Shown one piece after another: positions 33,597 to 55,450 of a DNA stretch of 64,000 nt. The position numbers and the translations under genes are program-made. Position 1 is the stretch's first letter; every line of letters starts with the position of its first letter. The notes under the pieces are model-generated. The model was not told the DNA's origin and did not search any database. It saw only the letters and a list, made by a program, of their open reading frames with translations. The stretch covers positions 1 through 64,000 of IMG/VR virus record IMGVR_UViG_3300023179_000041. The stretch is one strand, 5' to 3'. The DNA is from a virus.

Positions 33597-33982
33597 TGGC
33601 TTCTATCGGCGGCGCTATCCGGACCGTTTTGGTCAATGATTCTATAACTGGTATATCAAATCGCATATTCAGAGATATTGCCCCTCCAGAAACAGAATAT
33701 CCCTACATCACAATTTTTGATGAACTTGCCAACACTCCAGCCCTTATCGGTGACCAGGTTGTTTTGGCTCGTAATCGAATTGTCCAGGTAAGTCTTTGGC
33801 AAGTGCGTCAATCAGAAAACACCGGCATAATCAACGAAGTCATATCTGCGTTAGACAATGCAACGCTGAATGCAGACAGGTTTGTTTATCGGGTCAGGGT
33901 CAGTGACATAACGAGGACCTTCAATTCTGAGGATGATACGATTTTGCACGCAGTAACCCTTAACGTCATACAAAAGGCATAA
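33593..33982 (+). CDS. Tail terminator-like protein
   Basis: RIF.DIAP...YPYIT, VQVSLW; synteny. Confidence 0.7.
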   Translation: MMASIGGAIRTVLVNDSITGISNRIFRDIAPPETEYPYITIFDELANTPALIGDQVVLARNRIVQVSLWQVRQSENTGIINEVISALDNATLNADRFVYRVRVSDITRTFNSEDDTILHAVTLNVIQKA

Positions 33983-34662: not shown

Positions 34663-34685
34663 GAGGAGTCTGGAGGTAGACCGGC

Positions 34686-36143: not shown

Positions 36144-36203
36144 CAATATCCATAGTGCCTTGCGGGGCACGCAGAAACAGAAGACAGTTGAGGCTGTATT
36201 CAC

Positions 36204-36656
36204 ATGACACGATTTGTTGGCACGCCATTACGCGGCATTGAGTTTTCCAGTCCAAGCGACGAATCATTCTCAACGCGCGTAAATCTTGATGCACATGCGA
36301 GAATTCGCATTGATGCTGGCGGGCGGATTACATGGTCTTCTGGTTCGGCCGCTGGCGATACCAATCTTTACCGAACAAGTGCAAACACTCTCTATACAGA
36401 TGACGTATTCCAGGCCGCTCTTGGGTTGGTCACAGTCACATCTCTTGGCGCTCCAGTTTCTTCACTGCCAGATGGGGCGCTTGCGGTTGACACAACCAAC
36501 GACAAATTTTATTTCAGGTCAAACTCTGCTTGGCAAGAAGTTGGCGGTGCAGGTTTGTTATCTGGAGACGTAGATGGTGGTATTCTTTCGCCTGAGATTC
36601 ACGAAGCAGAAGTAACAAATTACGTATTGGTCGGTTTTGATGGAGGAACACTGTAA
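36204..36656 (+). CDS. Putative fibre-associated protein
   Basis: [20 protein letters not shown]. Confidence 0.65.
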
Positions 36657-42600: not shown

Positions 42601-42601
42601 A
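36656..42601 (+). CDS. Long repetitive tail fibre (1981 aa) with Mtd/hyaluronidase-type N-terminus
   Basis: [28 protein letters not shown]; repeated [32 protein letters not shown] modules. Confidence 0.88.
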
Positions 42602-42602
42602 T

Positions 42603-42965
42603 ATGCCATTGACACAAAAGAGACTGGTCGGACCAACTCAGTTGACTACGACGACAAGCACTGTTCTCTATACGGTTCCCCAAAGCACGACCACTATCGT
42701 CAAGCAAATAGTGCTGTGCAATACCACGGCGAGCGCTGTGACGGTAACTATGGTCCTCAAGCCGCTGAACGTTGCCCAAGCATCATCGCAGAACTTTTTT
42801 AATACCTTGTCAATTGCAGCAAACGAAACGTTGACGTTCCAAACCAACATGGTTTTGACCAATAATGGAAGCACGGCGAACGCTACCAATAGCGACCAAA
42901 TCATTGGTTCAGCGAGCGCAAATACGGCAATCAATGCATTTATTTATGGCGTAGAAGAGAGTTAG
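42603..42965 (+). CDS. Fibre-associated small beta protein
   Basis: LYTVP..TTTIVKQIVLCN...GVE. Confidence 0.65.
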   Translation: MPLTQKRLVGPTQLTTTTSTVLYTVPQSTTTIVKQIVLCNTTASAVTVTMVLKPLNVAQASSQNFFNTLSIAANETLTFQTNMVLTNNGSTANATNSDQIIGSASANTAINAFIYGVEES

Positions 42966-42967
42966 TC

Positions 42968-43699
42968 GTGGCTGGGTTTGTTCGGATGAACAACTCCACC
43001 ATTTCAACGGCGGAGTCAACTTCAAGCGTGTCTGGTTCGTTATTGAACCTCGCAACGTACTTGAATTTGCCTGACCCCGTATACGGAACTGGCGCCGACG
43101 GCGACGTCACCATAAGCGCGGACACGACCCTGACATCCGACAAGAACTACAAAAACCTCACGTTGGGCGCATTTACGCTCAATCCTGGTGGATACAGAAT
43201 ATTCGTTCAAAATGTCCTCACCTTGGCGAACGGCTCAAGAATTGGGTACACGACAGGATTCACCACCGCTGGAACGCTCGCCCAGGGTGGAGCAACAAAT
43301 ACTGCCGTTACCCACAGTCTTGGCGGCTCAAGTGGTGCACAAACGGCGACGGCGCCAACAGCGGCACTTGGCGGGTCTGAGTACTACAGACAGCCCTTAC
43401 AGGCGATTCGTGGTTGGGCGGTAACGGCTTCCTCTACGACTCCGACATTCCTTCGCGGCGGCGCCGGCGGTTCAAGCGGCGCTGGCGGCGGGGTCGTTCT
43501 TATTTCTGCTCGCTACATCACGGTATCTTCTGGCTCTGCCACATTCAGCGCTCCAGGAACTTCTGGTTCTGGCGGTGGCGGCGGCGGAGTTATCTTAATT
43601 GTCTCATCTGCGTCGGTACTCAATAATGGAGTAACTACTGATGTAACTGGAGGCACTGGGGCGTCGGCGGGCAACGTCTACTACATGCAGGTCGCATAA
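42968..43699 (+). CDS. Glycine-rich adhesin-like virion protein
   Basis: YGTGADGDVTI, poly-Gly motifs GGAGGSSGAGGG and GSGGGGGG. Confidence 0.7.
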   Translation: MAGFVRMNNSTISTAESTSSVSGSLLNLATYLNLPDPVYGTGADGDVTISADTTLTSDKNYKNLTLGAFTLNPGGYRIFVQNVLTLANGSRIGYTTGFTTAGTLAQGGATNTAVTHSLGGSSGAQTATAPTAALGGSEYYRQPLQAIRGWAVTASSTTPTFLRGGAGGSSGAGGGVVLISARYITVSSGSATFSAPGTSGSGGGGGGVILIVSSASVLNNGVTTDVTGGTGASAGNVYYMQVA

Positions 43700-43701
43700 T
43701 C

Positions 43702-44736
43702 ATGCCAAACATACAAAGATTCGGGCAGGATAGAGCGCCAGTTCAAAAAACTGGCACGGACAAAATCTTTGGTACTGGAGTCGACGGCACCGTAACCATC
43801 TCGACAAACACGTCTCTTTCTAGGGATATGTATTACGCAAACTTGACGGTCAATTCGAGCGTCACCTTGTTTACCAACGGATTCAAAATATTCGTCAGTG
43901 AAACGCTAACGAACAACGGAACCATTGGAATGCCCAAGGGCACTGCTCAAACTACTGCCGTACTGGCTGGAACAGTCCTAACAAGAGTTAATTCAACCGC
44001 ATCGTGGACGGCAAACCAGTCAATAGATTCGGCAAACAGTTCTGGAAACTTGGCATTTAGTAACACAAAGGGATTTGAAAATATTCTTGAGGGCGCATAT
44101 ACCACTGGCTCTGCCGTCAACAGATTCTTTGCTGGAGCACAAGGTGCAGCAGGTACCGCAAATCCAGGGAATGCTGGGAGCGGAGGAAACTCAACTGCGG
44201 GGAATCCTGGAACTGCTGGCTCTGCTGGTCTTGGTGGCGGAACTGTGGCAGTGATTGCCAAGACGATTTCTGGTTCTGGAACTTTTATCAGCGAAGGAAC
44301 AGACGGTACTTCTGGGTCAAACGGTAACCCTGGAACAACTCAACCTGGAACATCGTTCCACAACCCTGGTGGTCATGCCCATGCCCCAGCACATGCTCCT
44401 GGCCACAATCCTGGTTCGCACAATCCAGAACAATCATTTCACCACCCCGCTGGATGTTGCGCGTGGAACGGCGCACACCACCATGACCATCATAGTCACC
44501 ATCACGTAAACCAAAATGCTTGGCACCACCCAGGAAACCAATTCCATTATCAATATCACTATTCGCACTCACATCCAGGGAATCCAGGGCATAATCCTAC
44601 ATACCCAGGTGGCACTGGTGGCAGTGGAAATTCTGGAAACCCAGGAAAAGGTGGGAGTCTTTATGTGTTGACACGTGGTATTTCTACACATATAGCCTCT
44701 GGGAACATGACATACGTAGAAGACCTAGACGATTAA
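43702..44736 (+). CDS. Glycine-rich adhesin-like protein with His/Asn/Pro-rich insert
   Basis: Paralogous N-terminus (FGTGVDGTVTI), GNPG repeats, 23 His in 78 residues at 44359-44592. Confidence 0.75.
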   Translation: MPNIQRFGQDRAPVQKTGTDKIFGTGVDGTVTISTNTSLSRDMYYANLTVNSSVTLFTNGFKIFVSETLTNNGTIGMPKGTAQTTAVLAGTVLTRVNSTASWTANQSIDSANSSGNLAFSNTKGFENILEGAYTTGSAVNRFFAGAQGAAGTANPGNAGSGGNSTAGNPGTAGSAGLGGGTVAVIAKTISGSGTFISEGTDGTSGSNGNPGTTQPGTSFHNPGGHAHAPAHAPGHNPGSHNPEQSFHHPAGCCAWNGAHHHDHHSHHHVNQNAWHHPGNQFHYQYHYSHSHPGNPGHNPTYPGGTGGSGNSGNPGKGGSLYVLTRGISTHIASGNMTYVEDLDD

Positions 44737-44805
44737 AGAGCGATGTAGTGTATGATTGAAGACAGACACATAAGAGAACAACTCGGATTTACAGAGGTGA
44801 TTCAA

Positions 44806-45051
44806 ATGATTGATTTTTCTACTCTTCCAGCAGAAGAGGTTTCTTCGGTAGTTGCCAGAGTCAAAAACGACATTACTGCCGCTATTTATGAAGGAGTGTT
44901 AAGACTTGGTCTTGACCCTGCTTCGTTTGACGAGTCAACTTTTGCTAGTTCATTTGACGAAACGGATGTTGATTACGGTTTAAAGTCGGTTATTGTCAAT
45001 TCAATCAATCGCCTCAACTGGGTAAATAACTGGGCTGCTGAAAACCTTTAG
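44806..45051 (+). CDS. Small acidic hypothetical protein
   Basis: GAGGTG RBS; MIDFSTLP. Confidence 0.6.
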   Translation: MIDFSTLPAEEVSSVVARVKNDITAAIYEGVLRLGLDPASFDESTFASSFDETDVDYGLKSVIVNSINRLNWVNNWAAENL

Positions 45052-45087
45052 CCGCTAGGGCGCCTTGCGCCTTGATAGTATCCGTAT

Positions 45088-45702
45088 ATGAACTTCATAG
45101 AACATTTTTCGTGTCTTCGTGAATACACGTCGGTCTATTCGCCTGGTGATTTTGTAGAACTTGTTGAGCAAGAATGCAAACAAGATTGGGGATATTTGTC
45201 TTGGTATCAAACCCCAATTGGCGGAAACAAGAACAACTTGACAAATGTGGTTGACATTCACCGAACTTCACTCGGTTGCGAGATGTCCCCAATATCAATG
45301 CCGGTGGAGAATGTTTCCCAAGAAAGATTAATACCGCTTGCTAAAAAATGGATGCACATAAGGGAAAGAATCGATAAGTGCATTTGGCATTACCGCAATA
45401 CGTATTCCCTCAACCTGAGCGCTGACGAGGGTTTCAGGTTGTTGAAATACGGACGTGGAGCAGAATATAAGGGCCACGTAGACCACGCCCCAACGAACGC
45501 AAGAGTATTAAGTCTCGTGAGTTTTGTTAATGATGGATTTACTGGAGGCGAACTTGTTTTCCCTCTTCTGGACGTTAAAGTGACGCCGACCGCTGGCTCT
45601 GTGCTTTTGTTCCCGTCTAATTTCCCTTACTACCACTATGCCGCCCCAGTTGGCAAAAGTGACGAATCAATAAAGTATTCATTAGTTACATGGTTGCAGT
45701 GA
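45088..45702 (+). CDS. 2OG-Fe(II) oxygenase, prolyl-4-hydroxylase-like
   Basis: LLKY..G..YKGHVD, GGELVF, FPSNFPYYH, KYSLVTW. Confidence 0.88.
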   Translation: MNFIEHFSCLREYTSVYSPGDFVELVEQECKQDWGYLSWYQTPIGGNKNNLTNVVDIHRTSLGCEMSPISMPVENVSQERLIPLAKKWMHIRERIDKCIWHYRNTYSLNLSADEGFRLLKYGRGAEYKGHVDHAPTNARVLSLVSFVNDGFTGGELVFPLLDVKVTPTAGSVLLFPSNFPYYHYAAPVGKSDESIKYSLVTWLQ

Positions 45703-45708
45703 ACAACG

Positions 45709-47163
45709 ATGAAGATAGTAATTGTTGGCTCTGGAACATCGGGATTAGTATCGGCAATAATCCTTAGGGGGCTATTCCCCTTGTGGGATATCACTGTTGT
45801 CTCATCAAAAGACATTGGCATTATTGGGGTCGGCGAAGGCTCAACAGAGCATTGGAGACTTTATTTCCAAGACAAATATAACATCCCTGTTTCGGAGATG
45901 GTCACAGCCTGTCGCGCAACGCACAAATACGGAATCAAATTTGAAAACTGGACAAAACATACGCCAAATTATTTCCACAGCGTAAGTGCTGGAGAGTGGG
46001 GTCGCGCGTATTTCCCTGCAAATTATGCGTTCTGTTTGGAGAACAACAAACTATTGACCAATTCTATGGTGACTCATCTTCACGACAATACGATTGTGTT
46101 GAACGAAGGCAACCCACATCATGCCGTAAATCAATTTCATTTTGACACTTTCAAACTTAATGAGTATTTGACAAGCGTCTGCAAGTTGCGAAATGTATCT
46201 TTTATCGATGGAAAGGTATCGCGAGTCACAAGAAACTCAGATAATGGTTTCATAGAGTCGATTGACGTGGATTCTTTCGGCTTGATAAATGGTGATTTTT
46301 TTATTGATGCAAGTGGGTTTCGCAGAGTTTTAATAAGTGAACTCGTTGATTCTGATAAAGACTTTGTTTCATATAGAAAATACGTTCCTTGCGATTCTGC
46401 CGCCGTATTCCCAACGCCACGTGACGAGAGTGGCGAAATTCGCCCATACACAAGGGCAAGAGCGATGCCGAATGGTTGGATGTGGGAAATCCCGACCCAA
46501 GACAGACGAGGCAATGGATATGTATTCGCCTCAGATTTTTGTTCAGAAGAGCAAGCAGTTAGAGAGATTTCGGAAGCCCACGGAAAAGATATAGAACCAG
46601 CAAAAATCATAAAGTTTAAGTCTGGATACCATAAAACCGCTTTCGCATTTAATTGTGTTGCTGTGGGCTTGTCCTCGTCGTTTGTTGAACCGCTGGAAGC
46701 AACTGCGATATCAACATCAATTCAACAAGCGCGAATGCTTGCCTCAGTTCTGCCGACGTTTTCTATTGGCTCAACTGCAACTGTGTCTCAATATAATAAA
46801 CAGTACGAATCACTGTTGGAAAACATAATCACCATGGTGGCAATGCACTACATTTCCGACAGAGATGATACCGAAATGTGGAGAGCACAACAAGGTCTTG
46901 AGAAGCCGCCCATGCTTGAACACTTGATATCCCTGTGGAAAGAAAGACTTCCAGAAGCATATGATGTCCCAATATTTGGGTATGAATTATTTCAGAACGC
47001 ACACTTTTGGCATGTCGCTCAAGGACAAGGTCTATTGAACCCAGATTTGGCAACTATCCAACTTGACGCATTTGCCGTACGTAGAGAAGCAGCAAAAAAC
47101 ATTGCAAATCTAAAAAACGCCGCACTTGGGTCAAAAACCGTTAAGCATCATGCGATTTTTTAA
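45709..47163 (+). CDS. Flavin-dependent tryptophan halogenase-family protein
   Basis: GSGTSG, GVGEGS, ATHKYGIKF, FIDASGF, GWMWEIP, FVEPLEAT. Confidence 0.92.
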   Translation: MKIVIVGSGTSGLVSAIILRGLFPLWDITVVSSKDIGIIGVGEGSTEHWRLYFQDKYNIPVSEMVTACRATHKYGIKFENWTKHTPNYFHSVSAGEWGRAYFPANYAFCLENNKLLTNSMVTHLHDNTIVLNEGNPHHAVNQFHFDTFKLNEYLTSVCKLRNVSFIDGKVSRVTRNSDNGFIESIDVDSFGLINGDFFIDASGFRRVLISELVDSDKDFVSYRKYVPCDSAAVFPTPRDESGEIRPYTRARAMPNGWMWEIPTQDRRGNGYVFASDFCSEEQAVREISEAHGKDIEPAKIIKFKSGYHKTAFAFNCVAVGLSSSFVEPLEATAISTSIQQARMLASVLPTFSIGSTATVSQYNKQYESLLENIITMVAMHYISDRDDTEMWRAQQGLEKPPMLEHLISLWKERLPEAYDVPIFGYELFQNAHFWHVAQGQGLLNPDLATIQLDAFAVRREAAKNIANLKNAALGSKTVKHHAIF

Positions 47164-48013
47164 TCGCAACAAAAAGAGCAGGGTAGTTCAAGGTTCTGCA
47201 TGGGAAGATGTACCAATCCCCAAACCCAATGAACTTTTTGTTGTTCCAGCAACGAATGTATTGCTACACCCAAAATTGTCCGTTTATGAGAATAGGTCAA
47301 AAACACCAGACTGGTACAAAAAGGCAATAAGCGGTGAGTCAAGTATCAAACGATGCTATGGGCTGGCTGATTATCTTCGAACTGGCTACACAATCCCATT
47401 GTGGGCAAAATTGGACATACGACCGCCGTTGAATAAATTACAACCCAAATGGGAAGCAAAATACGATTTTTCACACGGCAACGTTTCCCATGATTTGCAG
47501 TTTGTTGATGAACTGGTCGACGATGAATTTTTTTCTATGAATTCATTGTTTCATAATCAGTTTGGTCAAGACCAAGTTGGTGAGTGTCCAGTGTCTCGCA
47601 TAAAAACACGACCAAATTCTGCATATCTCAAATTGACAAATCCGTGGTTATTCAAAACCGCACCAGGGTATTCAACGCTATTTATAGCACCGCAGTGGAG
47701 TCCTGACCCAAGATATCAGGTCATGTCTGGAGTTGTAAATACCGATTATTACCATCATGCAAATGTTGTTTTAAACATTATTGCAAACGAAGAGTTTTCT
47801 ATTGAAGAGGGAACTCCGATGCTTCACGCAATCCCATTCAAGCGAGAGGACGGAATAAAAAGCAGTTCATTAATTAGGGGAGATGAAAGACTACACAAAA
47901 CCCTAGATGGGCTTGGATTTTTGAATGTTAGGCGTCCGACTGACTGGAAGGGAATGTACAAGCGCGAACAATCTCAAATAGATAAGATGATTAAGGAACA
48001 AAACAGTGGATAG
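47150..48013 (+). CDS. Hypothetical protein, oxygenase-cluster family
   Basis: PDWYK..IKRC...GYTIPLW, NPWLFKTAPGYS, GVVNTD, GTPMLHAIPF. Confidence 0.7.
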   Translation: MRFFNRNKKSRVVQGSAWEDVPIPKPNELFVVPATNVLLHPKLSVYENRSKTPDWYKKAISGESSIKRCYGLADYLRTGYTIPLWAKLDIRPPLNKLQPKWEAKYDFSHGNVSHDLQFVDELVDDEFFSMNSLFHNQFGQDQVGECPVSRIKTRPNSAYLKLTNPWLFKTAPGYSTLFIAPQWSPDPRYQVMSGVVNTDYYHHANVVLNIIANEEFSIEEGTPMLHAIPFKREDGIKSSSLIRGDERLHKTLDGLGFLNVRRPTDWKGMYKREQSQIDKMIKEQNSG

Positions 48014-48473
48014 ATACGTTTTTTGCCCCAATGAATCCATGATGGATGAGGCTGTTTTGCTCGCCAAAGAGTGGTCATTGCCAATATTAAACGGTGATTC
48101 GGAGCGGTCAAAAAATGTTCATTTTGATAGAAATATTGTTTCCGTTGTTCTGATACCGATATTTAACGGGTTCGAGAATTGTCCAGAAGTTCTGGAGCCA
48201 AACATGGCATACATATTTAGATACAGAAATGATTTCATAGATTGCGGAGAGTTGGCAGCGGTTCTGTCAACAAAAAATCTAGGACTAAATAAAAGTTCTT
48301 TTTTACCGATACGAATGGTGTCGCCGCATGAAATAGAAATACTCGTTACAATCTCAAGTCTTGGAGAGTACTCAGTTATGATTGCTAAAGATAAAGAGGT
48401 TTTTGCTACTCACGATTTTGCGGTTTTGCCAGATGGAAGTTCCTCTATTGAGGACTTAAGCGCGTATGATTAA
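48006..48473 (+). CDS. Hypothetical protein
   Basis: Overlapping operon ORF. Confidence 0.55.
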   Translation: MDRYVFCPNESMMDEAVLLAKEWSLPILNGDSERSKNVHFDRNIVSVVLIPIFNGFENCPEVLEPNMAYIFRYRNDFIDCGELAAVLSTKNLGLNKSSFLPIRMVSPHEIEILVTISSLGEYSVMIAKDKEVFATHDFAVLPDGSSSIEDLSAYD

Positions 48474-49170
48474 TTTCCCCAGTGGCAGGTCTACCTGCAT
48501 AGCATATATAGATAACGCAATATCTGTTGACGATTGCAACTTTCTGATAGCAGAATGCACTAAAAATTATGACAAACTATTTTCCCCTGGCCCGACCATA
48601 GGTGGCGTAAACACAAGAATCAAAAACTCGATGGATTTTGGTTTGTCCGAAGAATCTGACAAGATTTATCAAACTGGCAACAATAATTTTTTGAAAGCAA
48701 CGCAATTTGTCCTAGATGGTCTTGGAACCGCAATGGCTCTATATTTGGAAGAGTTCAAAGAATTGCAGCACTCAACAGCATTAACGAGTACTGGTTTTAG
48801 ACTTCAGCACTATCCAAGAAAACAGGGTTATTACAGGCGGCATCATGATGGCGCGCCATGGGACCCGGACCCGATAAACAGCAGAGTGCTTGGGGTGGTC
48901 ATATACTTAAACACCATTAAGCATGGTGGTGGGACAGAATTCCCAGAACAAAATTGCGAGATAGAGGCAAAGGCTGGAAGAATCGCTCTTTTCCCAGCAA
49001 ATTGGACACATCCACACGCGGGGAAAGTTCCAATATCATGCGACAAGTGGATTATCAGCACATTTATTGTCTGCGATAGAATACATTCAGAACAATCAGT
49101 CGTTGTTCAGCCAGAGCAAATTAAATCGTATGATGACATTGAAAAACTTTTAGCGAATGAGGAAAAGTGA
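48466..49170 (+). CDS. 2OG-Fe(II) oxygenase, prolyl-4-hydroxylase-like
   Basis: LQHY...YRRHHD, IYLN...GGGTEF, FPANWTHPH, KWIIST. Confidence 0.9.
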   Translation: MINFPSGRSTCIAYIDNAISVDDCNFLIAECTKNYDKLFSPGPTIGGVNTRIKNSMDFGLSEESDKIYQTGNNNFLKATQFVLDGLGTAMALYLEEFKELQHSTALTSTGFRLQHYPRKQGYYRRHHDGAPWDPDPINSRVLGVVIYLNTIKHGGGTEFPEQNCEIEAKAGRIALFPANWTHPHAGKVPISCDKWIISTFIVCDRIHSEQSVVVQPEQIKSYDDIEKLLANEEK

Positions 49171-49898
49171 AACAAACTCCACTTACCATTTATTGGGCAC
49201 CATACTGGCCGCTGTCTTTAAAATATGACCTAAATCATATATTTCCTTCACCAAAATCTCTGTATGACGAGTGGTTTGAAAAATATACGCCGCAGCGACG
49301 ACCAGATGTTTACTTCAACTGCCCTGCGTCTACAAGAAAAATGAAACGAACATTTTCGTTTGTCAACATTGTAGACACACACACCAGATTTAATTCAGAT
49401 GGGTCAATCGAATATTCACGACCAGAGAAATATCAACTACTGAATGAACTAATTCACCAACCGACTATAGAAAATCACCGACTGATAAATGTTCAGTATT
49501 CGTTGCTTGTTTTTTGTGAGGAGTCTGTAGTTGCCTCAATGGAGTCCCCGTTTTTTCATAAAACAGAAGCATTCAAATATGGAGCCATAGTGCCTGGGGA
49601 GTTTGATGTTGGTCAATGGTACCGCCCATTAAATGCGGAGTTTCAATTATGGGAAAACGTAGACGAACTATATCTTGCTGCTAATGAGCCGCTCTTCTAT
49701 CTTGAATTTTTGACCGATAGACCAGTAGTTATGCAAAGGTATCAAGTCACGAAAAGACTAAGCACAATTGCAAGTTCCCTAATTCATGTAAATCCTCTTG
49801 GGAAATTTGCGGGTCTTTCTGAAAAATATCGCATCTTTCAACAATCGCGACTTAGAAGTCAGGTATTGAAAGAAATCAAGAACAATTTGGTTGATTGA
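49167..49898 (+). CDS. Hypothetical protein, probably related to 47150-48013
   Basis: NCPA, SPFFH, VPGEFDVGQWYRP, EPLFYLEF. Confidence 0.7.
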   Translation: MKQTPLTIYWAPYWPLSLKYDLNHIFPSPKSLYDEWFEKYTPQRRPDVYFNCPASTRKMKRTFSFVNIVDTHTRFNSDGSIEYSRPEKYQLLNELIHQPTIENHRLINVQYSLLVFCEESVVASMESPFFHKTEAFKYGAIVPGEFDVGQWYRPLNAEFQLWENVDELYLAANEPLFYLEFLTDRPVVMQRYQVTKRLSTIASSLIHVNPLGKFAGLSEKYRIFQQSRLRSQVLKEIKNNLVD

Positions 49899-49899
49899 A

Positions 49900-50511
49900 A
49901 TGACTATTAAAATAGTTGATTTTTTGTCTGCCGACGAAAGAGCGCGCGTCATTGAGTATGCAATGTGCAGACCGTGGTCAAAAGACAGTTGGGGACGTTT
50001 CACTTGTGACTTTCCTGTTTGGGACGTTCAAAACCTTGACTGGCTGTACGAGAAATCCGCCAATGCGGCATCTGCTGCGTTTGGCGCAGACGGCATTATT
50101 CCGACCTACTACAAATTTTGCAAGTATTCACCGCGTTACGGTATTCCAAGAGTCCCACCACACATAGATGAAAATGCATGCACATATACAGTTGACATAC
50201 AACTTGATTCAAATATTGACTGGTCTATATATATTGATTTTGATGAATATCTCCTTAAGGATGGAGATGCGGTTTTATACATGGGCGAAGACCAACTTCA
50301 TTGGCGCCCAAAATTTCCAACAGATGATGAGTCGGATTCAATCTCAATGCTTTTCATGCATTATGCGCACCAGAATCATTGGTTTTTTGAATATGGACAA
50401 GATTTTATGAGAAATCCAGAACTTCACAATATTTGGGTTCAAAGAATGCAAACTTTGCTTGCCTCGAACAAACACAAAACGATGACAGAAATTGACGACG
50501 GAATATTATGA
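49900..50511 (+). CDS. 2OG-Fe(II) oxygenase-like protein
   Basis: PPHID...YTVDIQL, GDAVLYMG...HWR, LFMHY. Confidence 0.8.
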   Translation: MTIKIVDFLSADERARVIEYAMCRPWSKDSWGRFTCDFPVWDVQNLDWLYEKSANAASAAFGADGIIPTYYKFCKYSPRYGIPRVPPHIDENACTYTVDIQLDSNIDWSIYIDFDEYLLKDGDAVLYMGEDQLHWRPKFPTDDESDSISMLFMHYAHQNHWFFEYGQDFMRNPELHNIWVQRMQTLLASNKHKTMTEIDDGIL

Positions 50512-50529
50512 ATGTGCTATCATGTTTTC

Positions 50530-50970
50530 ATGAACAAATTTCAACAATTCTTCAGACCAACCACGCAAGATGAATTGGCAGAACTAGCCAAAAAACTAAC
50601 CCCTCCAGACGACATAAGAGACCTAGTTCCGATTCCAGGTAGACCAGAAGACTGGCTATTTTACGGAGTACAAAAGAAAGCACAGTCATTTTTCTCGACG
50701 ATGGCGGCTCAAACCAAAAGGTTTGGGTCTCGTGAATACTGGACAAAGGTCAACGCAATTGAGGCGATATCCTTCACCACGAAGATATCTATCATTTTCC
50801 CTGGTCTTTTATTTGGCAAACAATGGTGGTGGCTGTATCTCTTCGCCCTGGTGTCAAGTGCGGCGCTTGTGGCAACATCAACCATAAAGACTTTACCGAC
50901 GATAATTTGGTTCAATATTATTTGGATTGTTCTAGCCTCACTATCAATCGCAAAGCACTTTATTCAATGA
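50530..50970 (+). CDS. Membrane protein (3 TM)
   Basis: IIFPGLLFGKQWWWLYLFAL, KTLPTIIWFNIIW. Confidence 0.7.
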   Translation: MNKFQQFFRPTTQDELAELAKKLTPPDDIRDLVPIPGRPEDWLFYGVQKKAQSFFSTMAAQTKRFGSREYWTKVNAIEAISFTTKISIIFPGLLFGKQWWWLYLFALVSSAALVATSTIKTLPTIIWFNIIWIVLASLSIAKHFIQ

Positions 50971-51087
50971 CGCAAGCGGCGGGATACTGATAGAAATTCA
51001 AGACAACTTGGTTGATTAACTACTTGTTTTCGTTGGCGTAATCAAAAGTCTTAAAAATTTGATGCCCTATACGTTACAATTTAGTCA

Positions 51088-52164
51088 ATGAAAATTGGGT
51101 ACATTTCTCAAGATTGGTCAAAGCATAATGGCAATTCTGTTCCAAACGGATGCACTTGGTACAGGTGCATAGTACCCGGCAAGGAAATGAAAAAATTTGG
51201 GGTGCTGACCGAAGTCGGTCTACTCGCAATGACAAGGAGCAATCAAATTGGCGTACAGCGTGTTGACGGAATGAAAGTCTCCGGGTTCGACATAATTGTT
51301 TTCAAATTGGCAATGCACGTGAGCACACTCGCAGCAGTTGATAGGGCAAAGGGAAACGGTCAAAAAATAGTCGTAGATATAGATGATTGGTTTGATGACC
51401 TACCTGATACAAATAGAGCAAAAATTATCACCGACCCAGAGCGAAACCCCTTCAACAACAGAAATATTTATTTTCAAATAATTGAACTTGCGGATGCGCT
51501 TATTTGCTCAACCGATTTTCTTTATCGCTGGTATAAAAACAAATATCCAAATAAATTGGTATTTTTAGTTCGCAACGCCATTGATTTGGATAGGTGGGCC
51601 AAGTACAAGCCACCAAAAGGAAAACCAGTCATCGGATGGATGGGCGCAACGCCCTGGCGTGCACTTGACTTAGAGCAGTTGCGTCCGTTTTTTGGGAATT
51701 TTATAAAACAACACAAACTAACTTTTCATCATGCCGGCCACATAGAGAATGCCGAGCACGCCGCAGACCTTCTTGGCATAGATAGGTCTTTTACTTCAAC
51801 AGAACCGATGCAGCCAATTACAAATCTCCCTTCACTAATGAAAAAATTCAACATTGGGATTGTTCCGCTAAACAATATTGATTTCAATAAGGCCAAGTCA
51901 TATCTGAAGGGGCTTGAGTATGCGGTTGCCGGAATCCCGTTTGTTGCCTCTGACATGTTTGAGTACAGACTCTTATCTGATGCTGGGATTGGTCGAATTG
52001 CAGATTCCCCAGAGCAATGGCAAGCACACATGGAGGCGCTATTGGATTTCAAGACGCGCAATGAAGATGCTAGAATTAATTACGAAATAGCAATATCTGA
52101 ATTCTCAATAGGTTCGCGTGTCAATGAATGGTTGTCAGTATTCAAAAAAATCTTGGAGCAATAG
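51088..52164 (+). CDS. GT-B (GT4-like) glycosyltransferase
   Basis: VDIDD, RNAID, IGWMG, IGIVPL..FN.AKS..KGLEY..AGIPFVAS. Confidence 0.9.
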   Translation: MKIGYISQDWSKHNGNSVPNGCTWYRCIVPGKEMKKFGVLTEVGLLAMTRSNQIGVQRVDGMKVSGFDIIVFKLAMHVSTLAAVDRAKGNGQKIVVDIDDWFDDLPDTNRAKIITDPERNPFNNRNIYFQIIELADALICSTDFLYRWYKNKYPNKLVFLVRNAIDLDRWAKYKPPKGKPVIGWMGATPWRALDLEQLRPFFGNFIKQHKLTFHHAGHIENAEHAADLLGIDRSFTSTEPMQPITNLPSLMKKFNIGIVPLNNIDFNKAKSYLKGLEYAVAGIPFVASDMFEYRLLSDAGIGRIADSPEQWQAHMEALLDFKTRNEDARINYEIAISEFSIGSRVNEWLSVFKKILEQ

Positions 52165-52167
52165 TTC

Positions 52168-53262
52168 ATGGCAAAAATTGAATTCAGCGTTGGTTTTGTT
52201 TCTACCGACTGGTCTCAGGTTGATGGTCAAATAGTGCCAAATGGCTGCACGTGGTACAGATGTATTTTGCCTTCACATGAGTTGCTGAAGTCTGGAATAA
52301 AATCGGCGGTTGGGCTCATTCAAATTCACGAAAATAGAGGTTTTGGCGTTGGCGGCATCGGGGTGCAAAAAGTAGGTACACATAAAATCATTGTGATGAA
52401 AGTAATAATGCATAAGTTGGTTCGCGACCATATTAAAAAAGCACAAAAGTACGGCCAAAAAATAGTTGTAGATATCGACGATTTGTTTGATGAGATTCAT
52501 GAAAGCAATATGGCTCACGGCTCGACAGACCCAACAAAAAACAAAGACAACAATCGAGTCATTTATAGTGAAATTATTGAGGCCTCTGACGCGCTTATTT
52601 GCTCGACCCCATTCATAGCGGAACATTACAAAGCAATGTTCCCAAGAAAACCTATATTTGTAATCAGGAATTCAATTGATGCCGGTAGATGGATACCATT
52701 TAACTCCGTTGAGAGGCAGCCAATTATCGGCTGGCTAGGCGCAACTCCATGGCGCTCATTAGACCTTGAGCAATTATCTGGTTTTTTCAACGAGTATCTT
52801 GAGTCTAGAAATGCAAAATTTCATCATTCGGGATACTTAAAGTGGGCCCCGCTCGCCCATAACAAATTGGGGATTAAGGATGCAAAGCGCGTAACGGTGT
52901 CTCCAATGGTGCCACTTATGGAGTTGCCACAAACATACGCAAACTTTGATATTGGAATTGTGCCGTTAAACGACATACCTTTCAATCGAGCAAAATCCTT
53001 CATTAAGGGCCTTGAATACGCGGCGGCTGGGATTCCATTTGTTGCTTCTGCACTGCCCGAATATGAATATCTTTCTGCTTGCGGCATAGGAACGATTGCG
53101 TCAAATAAAAGAGAATGGTTTGATGCCCTTGATTCATTGCTGGACGCAGGCAAAAGAGAGAAAGAAAGTTATAGGTGTAGGAAGATAGTTGAGGCCGATT
53201 TTTCTATTCAGGCGCACCGTAAAGAGTGGATTTCCGTGTTTAGGGAGATTGACAAGTTGTAG
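52168..53262 (+). CDS. GT-B (GT4-like) glycosyltransferase, paralog of 51088
   Basis: Same motifs including PNGCTWYRC and GATPWR. Confidence 0.9.
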   Translation: MAKIEFSVGFVSTDWSQVDGQIVPNGCTWYRCILPSHELLKSGIKSAVGLIQIHENRGFGVGGIGVQKVGTHKIIVMKVIMHKLVRDHIKKAQKYGQKIVVDIDDLFDEIHESNMAHGSTDPTKNKDNNRVIYSEIIEASDALICSTPFIAEHYKAMFPRKPIFVIRNSIDAGRWIPFNSVERQPIIGWLGATPWRSLDLEQLSGFFNEYLESRNAKFHHSGYLKWAPLAHNKLGIKDAKRVTVSPMVPLMELPQTYANFDIGIVPLNDIPFNRAKSFIKGLEYAAAGIPFVASALPEYEYLSACGIGTIASNKREWFDALDSLLDAGKREKESYRCRKIVEADFSIQAHRKEWISVFREIDKL

Positions 53263-53311: not shown

Positions 53312-55450
53312 ATGTCTACTCGCACCCGCATTCGTCGAATCCAGGCCATTGTTTGGCTGATTGCATTTACTGCGTCTCTTTTTACCTTTGTTAGTTTCCA
53401 GTCGCAGCGTGTCGTATTTGCCGACGATGAGCCAACAACAACGACGACGGTTTCCCCTACCACTACAGAGCCCACAACAACAACAGTTGAATCTACGACA
53501 ACAACTGTTGCCATAACTACGACTATTCCGGCGACTACAACTACGGTCGAATCAACTACGACCACTACGGTTTCGCCAACTACCACTATAGAACAAGTAA
53601 CTACGACTACTACGACTGTTCCGCCGACTACAACAACGACAACAGTCCCTCCAACAACAACTACTACCGTTCCCCAGCAAGTTACGTATACGGCTACGCA
53701 ATCAACGCGGGACTTTTACTTAGAAATTACAGAAGCGAGAACATTGACAATCAGGACATATGCGCAGTCGTTCGGCATTGACTCAATGTTGTGGCTCTAC
53801 AACTCAAGTAACACAATTCTTGCCGCAAACGACGACTGGTTCGGGCTGGATTCACATATTTCTATTCAACTTCAACCTGGCACATATCGACTTAGGGCTG
53901 GCGTTTGCTGCGGCAACCCGGATGCATGGTACGGAACTTCATACACAATCCAAGCGAATTCTGCATTGGCGCCTACGGCCGTTACGACTACTACGACTGT
54001 TCCGCCGACTACAACTACGACTACAACTACGACTACAACGACAACTACAACGACAACTACAAGTACTACGAGTACTACGAGTACAACTACTACGACTGTT
54101 CCAACAACTACGACTACGACTACGACTACGACTACGACAAGTACTACGAGTACGACTACTACGACTGTTTATGTAACTCCGCAGACTACGACGACGACCG
54201 CTCCTGTCGTGGAGACAACGCTTCCCCCGACAACAACTGTTCCTGAGCCAGAAGAGACTGCGCCTGAGACGACTGTTCCTGATGAGACTGAGACGACTGT
54301 TCCTGATGAAGCCGAAGAGCCTTCAACAACGACAACCACGATTTTAGAGCCTCAAGAAGAAGACGAAACAACAACAACAACAACGACTACTCCTGTTGAG
54401 ACTGACCCTGGTTTTGAGGCTGAGCCAGATGATGAACAGACCACTCCTCCTGACGAAGAAACAAAGACGCAAGAAGAGACACAGTCGACAGAACCAGAAA
54501 ACCCAGAAAGCCAAACAGAATCAGAATCTCCACAGGACGAAACTGTAACAGAAATAGTTGAAGGGCTTACTGAAGTTCTAGACGAAGATGCCTCGGCAGA
54601 AGATGTGACTGCTGCCGTTGAGGACGTCCTTGAATCAATCACGGATAAGGAAGAGGTAGCCGCCTTAGTCGAGGCAATTCTTGATGCAATCACGGAAGAT
54701 AAGCCTGTCGAGCAGTTGACCGAAGAAGATAAAGAAAAGATTGTAGCGGTGGTAGAAGCAGTCATAAGCGCCGGTATTGATTCTTCAGTCGCCTCAGAAC
54801 TGGCTTCTAGCGCTGCGGTTCTTGAGTCTGTTTCTGTTGACCAAGCCAAAACCATTTTTGCTTCAGTAGACGAAAGCGCCCTGACTGAAGAGGTTGCCGA
54901 ACAAATAGTTGACGCGGTGCAGGAAGCCCCCTCAGAGATTCGTGAAGTCTTTGAAGACGTCGTCAGCCTGTTCTCCGGCGCATTCGACTCCTATAAGATG
55001 CTCGGTTCAAATATCGATGTTGGGCAACGCCGAACAGTTGTTGCGGCAACTCTTCTAACTTCTGCCGGAGCGGCTTCGGCCATGCTCGGGACGTCTAGGC
55101 CCACCCCTAGCGGGTCTGCCCCGTCTAGTCCGAGCACACGGCAAGACACTGCGACTAGACGGGATGATGAGGAAGAATCTGAGCCTGCCGGCGAGATTGC
55201 TGGCGACGGTCTGGATTGGATTAGGAGTATAAGTATTTACAAATACGTAAATGGAGTAAAGGTTATGGACTGGAAAGCATTCATCAAAAAGTTTGTCTAC
55301 GGGTTGCTCAATATGGGCTTCACCATCGCTGGCTCCCTTGTTGTGTATTTAACTCTGTCTGGAGCCATTCAGAAGATTGCTGGCATCTCAACAGTTCTGG
55401 CAATCGCTGCCGCTCTATATTTGCACATGAAGGAGCCTGGAGAAGGCTGA
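53312..55450 (+). CDS. Mucin-like Thr-rich membrane protein with PPC-like domain
   Basis: Signal peptide/TM, two poly-Thr tracts flanking DSMLWLY..ANDD..LQPGTY, acidic helical region, two C-terminal TMs. Confidence 0.8.
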   Translation: MSTRTRIRRIQAIVWLIAFTASLFTFVSFQSQRVVFADDEPTTTTTVSPTTTEPTTTTVESTTTTVAITTTIPATTTTVESTTTTTVSPTTTIEQVTTTTTTVPPTTTTTTVPPTTTTTVPQQVTYTATQSTRDFYLEITEARTLTIRTYAQSFGIDSMLWLYNSSNTILAANDDWFGLDSHISIQLQPGTYRLRAGVCCGNPDAWYGTSYTIQANSALAPTAVTTTTTVPPTTTTTTTTTTTTTTTTTTSTTSTTSTTTTTVPTTTTTTTTTTTTSTTSTTTTTVYVTPQTTTTTAPVVETTLPPTTTVPEPEETAPETTVPDETETTVPDEAEEPSTTTTTILEPQEEDETTTTTTTTPVETDPGFEAEPDDEQTTPPDEETKTQEETQSTEPENPESQTESESPQDETVTEIVEGLTEVLDEDASAEDVTAAVEDVLESITDKEEVAALVEAILDAITEDKPVEQLTEEDKEKIVAVVEAVISAGIDSSVASELASSAAVLESVSVDQAKTIFASVDESALTEEVAEQIVDAVQEAPSEIREVFEDVVSLFSGAFDSYKMLGSNIDVGQRRTVVAATLLTSAGAASAMLGTSRPTPSGSAPSSPSTRQDTATRRDDEEESEPAGEIAGDGLDWIRSISIYKYVNGVKVMDWKAFIKKFVYGLLNMGFTIAGSLVVYLTLSGAIQKIAGISTVLAIAAALYLHMKEPGEG
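53983..54199 (+). repeat. Degenerate (ACN)n microsatellite encoding poly-Thr
   Basis: ACGACT/ACAACT runs. Confidence 0.8.

What the first reader, a model, noticed from the sequence alone, without database searches (positions are those of the whole stretch)
43702..53262. Candidate RiPP-like tailoring system for a phage adhesin: substrate gene followed by oxygenases, halogenase and glycosyltransferases
Seen: the His/Asn/Pro/Trp-containing adhesin gene is followed by a co-oriented, tightly packed, more AT-rich block. It encodes three 2OG-Fe(II) oxygenases (45088, 48466, 49900), a flavin-dependent Trp-halogenase-family enzyme with intact GxGxxG, K and WxWxIP motifs, two related unknown proteins, a membrane protein and two GT-B enzymes. 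Known: these families hydroxylate Pro/His/Asx, halogenate aromatics and glycosylate hydroxyls; beta-hydroxy-His and beta-hydroxy-Asp are siderophore iron ligands. Oxygenase and halogenase genes are known in aquatic phages but their substrates are generally unassigned. Inference: the enzymes convert the insert into a modified, possibly siderophore-mimicking, receptor-binding tip.
Basis: partly seen in the sequence, partly recalled or inferred. Interest (0 to 1): 0.85.

Follow-up and report, generated by a model that had tools for sequence, protein, structure and literature searches.

The report
Fibre-linked halogenase and oxygenase cassette
A lake-water phage keeps a halogenase, collagen-type hydroxylase-like enzymes and a dUTPase-fold partner directly behind a histidine-rich fibre-type gene; this pairing held in every related virus with enough sequence, so that protein is a concrete but unproven candidate for what viral halogenases act on, whereas the glycosyltransferases and the siderophore idea are not part of the conserved picture.

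Summary
The genes are there as described: a 344-aa His-rich protein (ADH, 43702-44736) followed by a co-oriented, tightly packed, AT-richer block. Two P4H-like 2OG oxygenases, an intact flavin-dependent halogenase and a paralogous glycosyltransferase pair are supported. The third oxygenase is only probable, and the kinship of the two unknown proteins is not confirmed.

Comparison gives the main result. In two IMG/VR trawls, all 73 distinct ADH homologues with enough flank lie next to a halogenase. Seeded the other way, 39 of 40 loci found with the unknown 295-aa protein carry ADH and the halogenase. Gene order varies, but adjacency is kept. The conserved core is a120-b243-ADH plus OX1-HAL-U295. 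Glycosyltransferases occur in 5 of 81 loci.

U295 has a dUTPase fold and matches Syn9 gp43. The enzyme set is therefore the cyanophage dioxygenase-halogenase neighbourhood described in 2010, which the literature reads as metabolite synthesis.

The best reading (about 0.45) is that the enzymes modify ADH. Nothing shows this directly. The Trp target, the tail-tip location and siderophore mimicry are unsupported. Covariation of enzyme content with insert composition could not be tested, because only one independent contrast exists.

This scan found the same module before in at least 24 other genomes.

The parts
42603..42965 (+). a120: small conserved protein, first gene of the a120-b243-ADH trio
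   Evidence: Present in 70 of 81 loci with a distinct ADH. 71-89% identical in close relatives. PHROG 20100, function unknown.
42968..43699 (+). b243: Gly-rich paralogue of ADH without the His-rich insert
   Evidence: hhalign against the ADH family gives probability 99.9, E 2.9e-32. Present in 79 of 81 loci.
43702..44736 (+). ADH: beta-solenoid-like fibre-type protein; a His/Asn/Pro/Gly-rich insert at about residues 223-291 (nt about 44368-44574) interrupts the scaffold
   Evidence: 24 His, 23 of them within 80 residues. In the AF2 model the scaffold has pLDDT 80-97 and the insert about 40. VIA-align finds only generic beta-helix matches, Z up to 6.3. 188 homologues in the large protein database.
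44752..45051 (+). c99: small acidic protein directly after ADH
   Evidence: A family-HMM match lies directly downstream of ADH in 48 of 81 loci. No conserved Trp or His core, so it is not a precursor peptide.
45088..45702 (+). OX1: P4H-like 2OG-Fe(II) oxygenase
   Evidence: PF13640 at E 1.8e-11. Its only PDB sequence matches are Bacillus anthracis prolyl 4-hydroxylase 3itq/5hv0, E about 5e-6. H130-x-D132...H183. Present in 74 of 81 loci.
45709..47163 (+). HAL: flavin-dependent halogenase
   Evidence: PF04820 at E 5e-97. All catalytic motifs are intact, and the full-length matches are to BrvH/2pyx-type enzymes; VirX1 matches at E 2.4e-39. Present in 73 of 73 loci with enough flank.
47126..48013 (+). 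U295: dUTPase-fold protein with an invariant Cys; the true start is probably the ATG at 47150
   Evidence: The profile matches only dUTPases in PDB. AF2 pLDDT is 84.7 and all top Foldseek hits are dUTPases. Cys77 is invariant, as is Met9. Syn9 gp43 matches the family HMM at 2.7e-24.
48006..48473 (+). U155: small conserved protein of unknown function
   Evidence: Present in 55 of 81 loci, placed either before OX1 or after U295. No informative match in Pfam or the Atlas.
48466..49170 (+). OX2: second P4H-like 2OG-Fe(II) oxygenase
   Evidence: PF13640 at E 2.5e-10. Homologous to OX1 (hhalign probability 99.6). Present in 44 of 81 loci.
49167..49898 (+). U243: unknown protein found only in close relatives
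   Evidence: PHROG 17480, function unknown. Present in 9 of 81 loci. Kinship to U295 not shown.
49891..50511 (+). OX3: probable DSBH oxygenase; the start is probably the ATG at 49900
   Evidence: Invariant H91-x-D93, H137 and R139. No PDB sequence match. Atlas neighbours that carry a Pfam family have PF13640 or HalD, at scores 0.89-0.91. Present in 26 of 81 loci.
50512..50970 (+). TM: small membrane protein closing the cassette
   Evidence: Hydrophobic segments at residues 107-149. Present in 45 of 81 loci.
51088..52164 (+). GT1: probable glycosyltransferase, accessory to the module
   Evidence: PHROG 7162 at 1.8e-33. Pfam Glyco_trans_1_4 scores 20.9 bits, below the cut-off of 27. The GT family is present in 5 of 81 loci.
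52168..53262 (+). GT2: paralogue of GT1, accessory to the module
   Evidence: 46.6% identical to GT1. PHROG 7162 at 2.6e-34. No PDB sequence match.

Best explanation
The block is one functional module. A fibre-type virion protein (ADH) displays a hypervariable, uncharged loop rich in His, Asn-Pro and Gly from a beta-solenoid-like scaffold. The adjacent enzymes modify that loop after translation.

Inferred steps:
1. The P4H-like oxygenases OX1 and OX2 (and probably OX3) hydroxylate residues in the recurring (G/H)-N-P-G motifs. Pro in X-Pro-Gly is the most likely target; Asn or His are possible.
2. The flavin-dependent halogenase uses host-reduced flavin to halogenate an electron-rich side chain of the loop. 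Tyr or His is more likely than Trp.
3. The dUTPase-fold Cys protein U295, U155 and the small acidic c99 act as accessory or chaperone components.

The result would be a chemically tailored, probably metal-binding, surface element of the virion. The glycosyltransferase pair is a lineage-specific add-on whose target is open: ADH, other fibre proteins, or the Thr-rich membrane protein downstream.

Shown here: gene content, intact catalytic motifs, and the conserved two-way linkage. Inferred: every chemical step, the virion location and the function.
For: - Linkage: 73 of 73 distinct ADH homologues with enough flank have HAL beside them; the 8 without are cut at contig ends.
- Reverse linkage: 39 of 40 non-redundant U295-seeded loci with at least 8 kb upstream carry ADH and HAL.
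- Rearrangement: adjacency holds whether the enzymes lie after, before or convergent to the trio.
- Controls: 25 prokaryotic loci with only the N-terminal domain have no a120 and none of the enzymes. The only two loci with the full trio (L173, L177) both have U155-OX1-OX1-HAL-U295.
- Second lineage: in T4-like cyanophage Syn9 the homologous cluster (gp41-54, gp43 = U295) directly follows the fibre gp34 and the poly-Gly proteins gp36, gp38 and gp39.
- Substrate fit: NP is the most enriched dipeptide in 73 inserts (507 observed, 185 expected), and GNP, HNP and NPG are among the commonest tripeptides. OX1's only solved relatives are a collagen-type P4H.
- No scaffold: the cluster has no NRPS, PKS, ATP-grasp or precursor-peptide gene.
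- Family position: an N-domain homologue sits at the distal-tail position of a Bacillus prophage.
- Weak precedent: a 2OG oxygenase was detected in a cyanophage virion proteome (PMC12801897).
Against: - There is no direct evidence of any modification.
- No residue other than Gly is common to all inserts. His ranges from about 2% to 24% of the protein (L177 has 8 His), and Trp is absent in several, so the halogenase target is undefined.
- No flavin-dependent halogenase is known to act on His (own knowledge).
- U295 homologues in haloarchaeal viruses sit next to thymidylate synthase and DNA polymerase, without HAL or OX. That suggests a nucleotide-related role.
- The loci could share synteny by descent, and fibre-gene ends are known hot-spots for accessory genes.
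- The enzyme genes always have lower GC than the trio (48 of 48 loci), as a mobile cassette might.
- The literature reads the homologous cyanophage clusters as metabolite or polysaccharide pathways (PMC2938197, PMC7824862).
Confidence: 0.45

Rival explanations
1. The enzymes form a small-molecule pathway. They hydroxylate and halogenate a free amino acid, indole or other host metabolite, or they decorate a polysaccharide, as proposed in the literature for the homologous cyanophage clusters. Their position next to the fibre genes would then reflect only where accessory genes accumulate.
For: - Iyer et al. 2010 and 2021 read the Syn9-type clusters this way.
- HAL's best full-length solved relatives are BrvH/2pyx-type enzymes and VirX1, which act on free small aromatics (substrate statement from own knowledge).
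- The enzyme block has its own, lower GC.
- A membrane protein closes the cassette.
Against: - No scaffold-building enzyme, carrier protein or transporter family was found.
- Linkage to ADH is 73/73 and 39/40 and survives three different gene orders. A mere hot-spot does not predict that.
- The same juxtaposition with Gly-rich fibre-region proteins recurs in unrelated myoviruses.
Confidence: 0.2
2. The enzymes modify proteins other than ADH, for example other virion proteins or host envelope or ribosomal proteins during takeover. ADH would be an unmodified, intrinsically metal-binding or low-complexity fibre element that happens to be inherited with them.
For: - His-rich loops can bind metal without modification (T4 gp37 HxH motifs; own knowledge).
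- Insert composition is too variable for one residue-specific enzyme.
- L059 and L066 keep OX and U295 but lack HAL, beside a Tyr-rich b243-like protein.
- MINA/NO66-type relatives in Syn9 hydroxylate ribosomal His in other systems.
Against: - It does not explain why adjacency to the trio is kept through rearrangements.
- It does not explain why homologues with only the N-terminal domain never have the enzymes.
- The enzymes carry no targeting or secretion signals (sequence read).
Confidence: 0.2
3. The block is a DNA hypermodification system: oxidation of a base by 2OG oxygenases followed by glycosylation, helped by a dUTPase-like nucleotide enzyme.
For: - Phage TET/JBP-type oxygenases with glycosyltransferases are a known pattern (own knowledge).
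- U295 has a dUTPase fold, and its halovirus homologue lies beside thymidylate synthase.
- An SNF2 helicase lies 2.7 kb downstream.
Against: - OX1 and OX2 are P4H-type (PF13640), not TET/JBP.
- The glycosyltransferases are absent from 76 of 81 loci.
- A halogenase has no known role in DNA modification.
- The block lies inside the fibre genes.
Confidence: 0.03

Closest known systems
Syn9/Syn10-type cyanophage dioxygenase-halogenase-dUTPase-fold neighbourhood (Syn9 gp41-gp54; Iyer, Abhiman, de Souza, Aravind 2010, PMC2938197)
   Same: Both combine several distantly related 2OG dioxygenases, Trp-halogenase-family enzymes and a dUTPase-fold protein with a conserved Cys. The window's U295 family HMM matches Syn9 gp43 at 2.7e-24. 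In Syn9 the cluster also follows a fibre gene and Gly-rich proteins.
   Different: This module has one halogenase and 2-3 oxygenases instead of 2 and 10. No JmjC/MINA-type member was found. It sits in a siphovirus with an actinophage-like capsid. It is strictly coupled to the a120-b243-ADH trio, which has no detectable homologue in Syn9. The paper proposes secondary-metabolite synthesis, not protein modification.
Viral and BrvH-type flavin-dependent halogenases (VirX1, PDB 6qgm; BrvH, 6frl; 2pyx)
   Same: Same family, with all catalytic motifs intact. Matches run full length: 6frl at E 4e-53, VirX1 at 2.4e-39. The natural substrate is unknown in each case.
   Different: About 31-38% identity to cyanophage enzymes. 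It is shorter (484 aa) than Trp halogenases, and residues 92-141 do not align to them. Here there is a specific candidate protein substrate next door.
Peptide-modifying halogenases of RiPP pathways (MibH, PDB 5uao; SrpI; ChlH)
   Same: A flavin-dependent halogenase encoded beside a ribosomally made substrate. MibH matches at E 4e-40.
   Different: There is no short leader/core precursor, no recognition element and no protease. The candidate substrate is a folded 344-aa structural protein. The RiPP enzymes act on Trp, which is not conserved here.
Collagen-like protein plus prolyl 4-hydroxylase pairs (Bacillus anthracis P4H, 3itq/5hv0; PBCV-1 and mimivirus collagen-modifying enzymes; the bacterial collagen-like or tail-collar operons of Iyer 2010)
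   Same: OX1's only solved sequence relatives are the B. anthracis P4H. ADH has Gly-rich G-x-x repeats and many X-Pro-Gly sites. Some ADH homologues carry Pfam collagen repeats.
   Different: The window's ADH does not match the collagen Pfam model. The model is a beta-solenoid, not a triple helix. A halogenase and a dUTPase-fold protein are not part of those systems.
Mycobacteriophage virion glycosylation (Freeman et al. 2023, cited in PMC12801897)
   Same: Phage-encoded glycosyltransferases lie beside structural genes of actinophage-like siphoviruses. This is a precedent for phage-encoded modification of its own virion proteins.
   Different: There the glycosyltransferases are the whole system and the targets are capsid and tail-tube C-termini (own knowledge). 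Here the glycosyltransferases are an occasional add-on (5 of 81 loci) and their target is unknown.
T4 gp37 needle with His-x-His iron sites, and T-even gp38 adhesins with polyglycine scaffolds
   Same: His-rich or HxH motifs and Gly-rich scaffolds carrying hypervariable loops in fibre tips. The window's insert has 6 HxH motifs. gp38 structures align weakly, at Z 4.0-4.4.
   Different: There is no detectable homology. The matches rank below generic beta-helices. The gene is not in the tail-tip module. No dedicated modifying enzymes are known for gp37 or gp38.

Membership tests
Flavin-dependent (Trp-type) halogenase, PF04820 | N-terminal FAD-binding GxGxxG | tested here: met
   VGSGTSG at residues 5-11 aligns to GGGTAG of 5hy5. 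Pfam E 5e-97.
Flavin-dependent (Trp-type) halogenase, PF04820 | Catalytic lysine (PrnA K79 equivalent) and conserved glutamate (E346 equivalent) | tested here: met
   The K in 'ATHKYGIKFENW' aligns to the K in 'ATYKLAVRFQDW', and 'FVEPLEAT' aligns to 'FVEPLEST' of 5hy5.
Flavin-dependent (Trp-type) halogenase, PF04820 | WxWxIP motif | tested here: met
   GWMWEIP aligns to GWIWTIP.
Flavin-dependent (Trp-type) halogenase, PF04820 | Halogenating activity and identity of the substrate | not testable with these tools
   Needs an enzyme assay. Residues 92-141 do not align to Trp halogenases.
P4H-like 2OG-Fe(II) oxygenase, PF13640 | Profile match above the gathering score, and the HxD...H iron triad | tested here: met
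   OX1 scores 45.3 bits and OX2 41.6 bits against a cut-off of 27. HVD...H183 in OX1 and HHD...H182/184 in OX2.
P4H-like 2OG-Fe(II) oxygenase, PF13640 | The same features for the third candidate (49891/49900) | tested here: inconclusive
   No Pfam or PDB sequence match. hhalign to OX1 gives E 0.01 over the HxD region. H91-x-D93, H137 and R139 are invariant. Atlas neighbours carry PF13640 or HalD at 0.89-0.91.
Syn9-type dioxygenase-halogenase neighbourhood (Iyer et al. 2010) | Co-encoded multiple 2OG dioxygenases, a Trp-halogenase-type enzyme, and a dUTPase-fold protein with a conserved Cys | tested here: met
   OX1, OX2 and HAL. U295 dUTPase fold. Invariant Cys77. Syn9 gp43 matches the U295 HMM at 2.7e-24. 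The paper was read.
Syn9-type dioxygenase-halogenase neighbourhood (Iyer et al. 2010) | A JmjC/MINA-NO66-type member (Syn9 gp49) | tested here: inconclusive
   No Pfam JmjC or cupin match for any ORF at E up to 10. U243 and U155 were not folded.
RiPP biosynthetic system | A short precursor peptide with leader and core next to the tailoring enzymes | tested here: not met
   The candidate substrate is a 344-aa protein with a confidently folded scaffold. The only small ORF (c99) has no conserved core or target residues.
RiPP biosynthetic system | Recognition element (RRE) or leader peptidase | tested here: inconclusive
   No such Pfam or PHROG family appears in the block. The unknown proteins U155, U243 and c99 were not folded.
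GT-B glycosyltransferase (Glyco_trans_1_4) | Profile match above the curated cut-off | tested here: inconclusive
   20.9 and 23.3 bits against a cut-off of 27. PHROG 7162 'glycosyltransferase' at about 1e-33. No PDB sequence match. Not folded.
dUTPase (trimeric dUTP pyrophosphatase) | The five catalytic motifs | tested here: inconclusive
   The fold is shared, and a motif-III-like 'VVxTDYY' segment with invariant D207 is present. Profile E-values are only 0.007-0.8 and cover about 45-65 residues. The other motifs were not identified.
T-even gp38-type adhesin | Polyglycine-II sandwich fold with hypervariable loops | tested here: inconclusive
   VIA-align Z 4.4 (6f45_D) and 4.0 (9v85_C), below generic beta-helices at Z 6.3. 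Foldseek found nothing.
Collagen triple-helix repeat protein, PF01391 | Pfam collagen repeat match | tested here: not met
   No Pfam family for the window's ADH. Three distant homologues (P0091, P0095, P0106) do carry PF01391.

The most novel reading that the evidence does not exclude
A phage-encoded post-translational tailoring machine chemically rewrites a hypervariable loop of the phage's own fibre protein. It would consist of collagen-type hydroxylases, a flavin-dependent halogenase and a dUTPase-fold Cys protein. If so, this is the first natural protein substrate of a viral halogenase, and possibly the first enzymatic halogenation of His or Tyr in a virion structural protein. The product would be a metal-binding or hardened adhesive element. 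The same logic may then explain the long-unassigned dioxygenase-halogenase clusters of marine cyanophages.
Probability: 0.4. Interest if true: 0.85.

Novelty: new variant of a known kind. Interest (0 to 1): 0.62.

Why it matters
Halogenase and 2OG-oxygenase genes have been known in aquatic phages since about 2005-2010. One of them (VirX1) is a well-studied biocatalyst, yet no natural substrate has been assigned, and the literature assumes small metabolites.

A strict, two-way and rearrangement-proof linkage to one hypervariable fibre-type protein turns that open question into a direct experiment: co-express the genes and weigh the protein. If confirmed, it would add enzymatic hydroxylation and halogenation to the short list of virion protein modifications. 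It would also give a new route by which phages diversify surface chemistry without changing sequence, and offer protein-acting halogenases for biocatalysis.

The phage recurs in lake metagenomes from at least six studies between 2017 and 2025, so environmental material for proteomics exists.

Tried and rejected
- Nucleotide and protein searches of ADH and b243 against cultured phage records found nothing. No isolate carrying the trio is known.
- The genome contigs trawl found no cultured lysogen with the full trio. Only N-terminal-domain homologues and one marine MAG turned up.
- Covariation of enzyme content with insert composition: OX2-less loci have low Pro (4-6%) and low Asn (4-9%). However, OX2 presence changes only once on the HAL tree, which gives one independent pair and no test.
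- Kinship of U295 and U243 is not supported (hhalign E 0.15). U155 has no informative relatives.
- ADH scaffold: Foldseek against PDB found nothing. The wide VIA search found only generic beta-solenoids.
- c99 as a RiPP precursor is rejected: it has no conserved core.
- HSTV-2 gene 35 as an ADH relative: one profile gave only E 0.002 and my family HMMs gave none. I could not read the HSTV-2 virion proteomics paper.
- Promoter and terminator scan: counts are at chance level.
- Expression: no RNA holder is listed among public runs.
- Laid contigs: three runs are identical and one holds a roughly 90% relative. A joint 44300->44625 that would skip the insert rests on one contig with a 22-nt side, and I do not trust it.

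Full report
**What the window is.** The window is the first 64 kb of a 106-kb IMG/VR virus contig, estimated 79% complete. It encodes:
- a large terminase, portal, prohead protease and a major capsid protein 42-48% identical to those of Gordonia and Brevibacterium phages;
- head-tail connectors ending with a tail terminator at 33593-33982;
- much further on, an endolysin (58747), the major tail protein (59687) and the tape measure (61019-65938), followed by distal-tail genes at 65944 and 66816.

Between the tail terminator and the major tail gene lies a long insertion-like region. It holds fibre-like genes (33985-42601, including a 1981-aa fibre), the three genes a120, b243 and ADH, the enzyme block, a Thr-rich membrane protein and an SNF2 helicase. 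The 'adhesin' is therefore not encoded in the classical tail-tip module. The same or a near-identical phage occurs in lake and freshwater metagenomes from at least six studies between 2017 and 2025.

**Check of the observation.** They are co-oriented and closely packed. The block is AT-richer: 0.414 GC for the enzymes, against 0.529 for a120+b243 and 0.483 for the rest of the window.
- 45088 and 48466 are P4H-like 2OG-Fe(II) oxygenases above Pfam's gathering score, with HxD...H triads.
- The only solved sequence relatives of OX1 are the Bacillus anthracis collagen-type prolyl 4-hydroxylase.
- 45709 is a flavin-dependent halogenase (E 5e-97). GxGxxG, the catalytic Lys, WxWxIP and the conserved Glu all align to a solved Trp 6-halogenase.
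- The halogenase's full-length matches are to BrvH/2pyx-type enzymes, and VirX1 matches at 2.4e-39. Residues 92-141 do not align to Trp halogenases.
- The two glycosyltransferase candidates are paralogues (46.6% identical). They have a strong PHROG match but a sub-threshold Pfam match.

Three details need correction:
- The third oxygenase is only probable.
- The two unknown proteins are not shown to be related.
- Trp is not a conserved component of the insert.

**The candidate substrate.** ADH is a paralogue of the preceding gene b243 (hhalign probability 99.9), with an added segment. In an AlphaFold2 model built on 60 homologues, residues 20-222 and 292-344 form a confident beta-rich scaffold (pLDDT 80-97). 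Residues 223-291 are modelled at about 40.

The scaffold resembles only generic beta-solenoids such as bactofilin, autotransporter passengers and antifreeze helices (Z up to 6.3). gp38 adhesins score lower, at Z 4.0-4.4.

The family is large: 188 homologues in the big protein collection and 332 relatives in IMG/VR. Its scaffold is conserved, and its insert varies from about 100 to about 850 residues. Pooled inserts are His 16%, Gly 16%, Ala 12%, Asn 11% and Pro 11%, with almost no charged residues and 0.2% Trp.

NP is the most over-represented dipeptide (507 observed against 185 expected from shuffles). GNP, HNP and NPG are among the commonest tripeptides. These sequences are related and repetitive, so the z-scores are inflated.

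A homologue of the N-terminal domain sits at the distal-tail position of a Bacillus songklensis prophage, in the order tape measure, 761 aa, fibre-like 182 aa, homologue, endolysin. That supports a fibre or adhesin role for the family by position only.

**The comparative test.** I seeded one IMG/VR trawl with an ADH alignment and a second with an alignment of the unknown 295-aa protein U295. I then annotated all ORFs of about 160 loci with family HMMs built from the first set.
- Of 81 distinct full-length ADH homologues, 73 have a halogenase in view. The other 8 are all cut by a contig end.
- In reverse, 39 of 40 non-redundant U295-seeded loci with at least 8 kb upstream and 3 kb downstream carry both ADH and HAL. 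The exception, L138, has U295 alone.
- The order is usually a120-b243-ADH-(c99)-(U155)-OX1-HAL-U295-(U155)-(OX2)-(OX3)-(TM).
- In some loci the enzymes precede the trio (L038, L043, L070, L161). In others they are convergent to it (L140, L141, L159).

Frequencies among the 81 loci are: b243 79, OX1 74, HAL 73, U295 71, a120 70, c99-like 56, U155 55, TM 45, OX2 44, OX3 26, U243 9 and GT 5. The glycosyltransferases, U243 and partly OX3 are therefore lineage-specific additions.

Negative controls come from prokaryotic genomes. There, 25 loci carry only the N-terminal domain, have little His, and have no a120 and none of the enzymes within 10 kb. The only two loci with the full trio (L173 and L177, one marine MAG) both have U155-OX1-OX1-HAL-U295.

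One of those two, L177, has an ADH with only 8 His. The cassette therefore tracks the trio architecture rather than His content as such. Two related loci, L059 and L066, lack HAL. They carry a Tyr-rich b243-like protein with OX and U295.

**Covariation could not be tested.** Loci without OX2 have inserts with 4-6% Pro and 4-9% Asn, whereas most loci with OX2 have more. But on a halogenase tree OX2 presence changes only once. That leaves a single independent contrast, in which Asn but not Pro differs. This is not a test.

**What the unknown core gene is, and the link to known systems.**
- A profile of U295 matches only dUTPases in PDB, weakly (E 0.007-0.8).
- Its AlphaFold2 model (pLDDT 84.7) has dUTPases as all top Foldseek hits.
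- Cys77 is invariant.
- tblastn and the family HMM link it to Syn9 gp43 (2.7e-24) and to Syn10, S-RIM4 and P-TIM40.

[quoted passage not shown] They described it inside the Syn9 cluster of ten dioxygenases and two halogenases (PMC2938197, read). Earlier reports of this scan gave me that lead, and I checked both the fold and the paper myself.

The authors proposed synthesis of halogenated secondary metabolites. A 2021 paper from the same group still reads related cyanophage clusters as metabolite synthesis or polysaccharide decoration (PMC7824862). I found no paper linking the cluster to a fibre protein.

In Syn9 the cluster directly follows the fibre gp34 and three Gly-rich proteins (gp36 is 35% Gly; also gp38 and gp39). 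S-H38 has a similar 36%-Gly protein upstream of its halogenase. None of these matches the ADH HMMs, and none is His-rich. This is a second, unrelated lineage in which the enzyme set sits behind Gly-rich fibre-region proteins.

**Evidence that cuts the other way.**
- U295 homologues occur in 49 haloarchaeal tailed-virus records. In HSTV-2 the gene lies next to thymidylate synthase and DNA polymerase, with no halogenase or oxygenase found in the 14.5-kb stretch examined. A nucleotide-related role is therefore possible.
- Across 48 of 48 loci the enzyme genes have lower GC than a120 and b243, by 6.4 points on average. Part of this follows from the Gly/Ala/Pro-rich composition of the structural proteins. 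It is also what a mobile cassette would show.
- Identity profiles show some recombination between the trio and the cassette among close relatives.
- No residue other than Gly is universal in the inserts, so the halogenase target cannot be named.
- Halogenated His exists in nature, for example 5-bromohistidine in sponge skeletons (PMC8659048). To my knowledge, however, no flavin-dependent halogenase is known to make it.

**Verdict.** The most likely explanation is that the enzymes modify ADH or the trio (about 0.45). Pro hydroxylation at X-Pro-Gly sites is the best-founded step, and the halogenation target is open.

A small-molecule pathway (about 0.2) and other protein targets (about 0.2) remain serious rivals. 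DNA modification is unlikely (about 0.03). The glycosylation step, the RiPP label, the Trp target, the tail-tip location and siderophore mimicry are not supported.

The enzyme neighbourhood has been known since 2010, while its strict coupling to a fibre-type protein appears unpublished. This scan has already reported the same module in at least 24 other genomes, with the same conclusion.

Noticed in passing
window 53312-55450: A 712-aa protein with an N-terminal hydrophobic segment, long poly-Thr tracts, an acidic region and C-terminal hydrophobic segments lies directly after the glycosyltransferase pair. It is a possible O-glycosylation target. In the other five loci that have the glycosyltransferase, no such protein is adjacent.
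   Followed up: partly
window 33985-59601: About 25 kb is inserted between the tail terminator (33593-33982) and the major tail protein (59687). It holds fibre-like genes, the enzyme block, the Thr-rich protein, an SNF2 helicase and the endolysin. This is an unusual place for fibre genes in a siphovirus; the distal-tail genes follow the tape measure as usual.
   Followed up: partly
L088 (HSTV-2, KC117376.1) 6824-7693: U295-family homologues occur in 49 haloarchaeal tailed-virus records. In HSTV-2 (gene 40, HMM 1.7e-30) the gene lies beside thymidylate synthase and DNA polymerase. No halogenase or oxygenase was found in the 14.5-kb stretch examined. The KRC motif with the conserved Cys is kept.
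   Followed up: partly
L089 (Synechococcus phage S-H38) 17823-18110: An unannotated 95-aa ORF has a signal-peptide-like N-terminus and 29.5% His, about 4 kb downstream of the halogenase. A 296-aa protein with 36% Gly lies at 6545-7435, after the tail-fibre gene.
   Followed up: no
L092 (Synechococcus phage Syn9) 3730-7202: Syn9 gp36 (35% Gly), gp38 and gp39 (22-23% Gly) lie between the fibre gp34 and the halogenase/dioxygenase cluster gp41-54. The annotated gp39 contains an internal near-duplicate segment and an odd hydrophobic stretch, which may be a sequence or annotation problem.
   Followed up: no
L059 and L066: A variant module without a halogenase: a120, a Tyr-rich 456-459-aa b243-like protein, a second b243, then OX1 OX1 (OX3) U295, with U295 and OX3 duplicated in L066.
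   Followed up: partly
window 47126, 48006, 49891: The listed TTG/GTG starts are probably too early. Met9 of U295 is invariant in the family, which puts the start at 47150. The Atlas holds OX3 from residue 4 (start 49900) and U155 from residue 13 (start 48042).
   Followed up: partly
own genome 80166-80738 (- strand, beyond the window): A fourth OX1-like 2OG oxygenase ORF (family HMM 3.9e-11) lies in the early/replication region, away from the fibre block.
   Followed up: no
window 44300-44625: In one freshwater run that holds a roughly 90% relative, a single contig joins 44300 to 44625, skipping 324 nt that span the His-rich insert. Only 22 nt lie on the shorter side. Another contig of the same run reads through the insert. 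This is probably an alignment artefact of the flanking GNPG repeats.
   Followed up: partly
L084, L113-L115, L049: Some ADH homologues are very long (841-1123 aa, up to 104 His). These loci carry extra OX1-like genes upstream of the trio (up to six OX1-type ORFs in L084).
   Followed up: no
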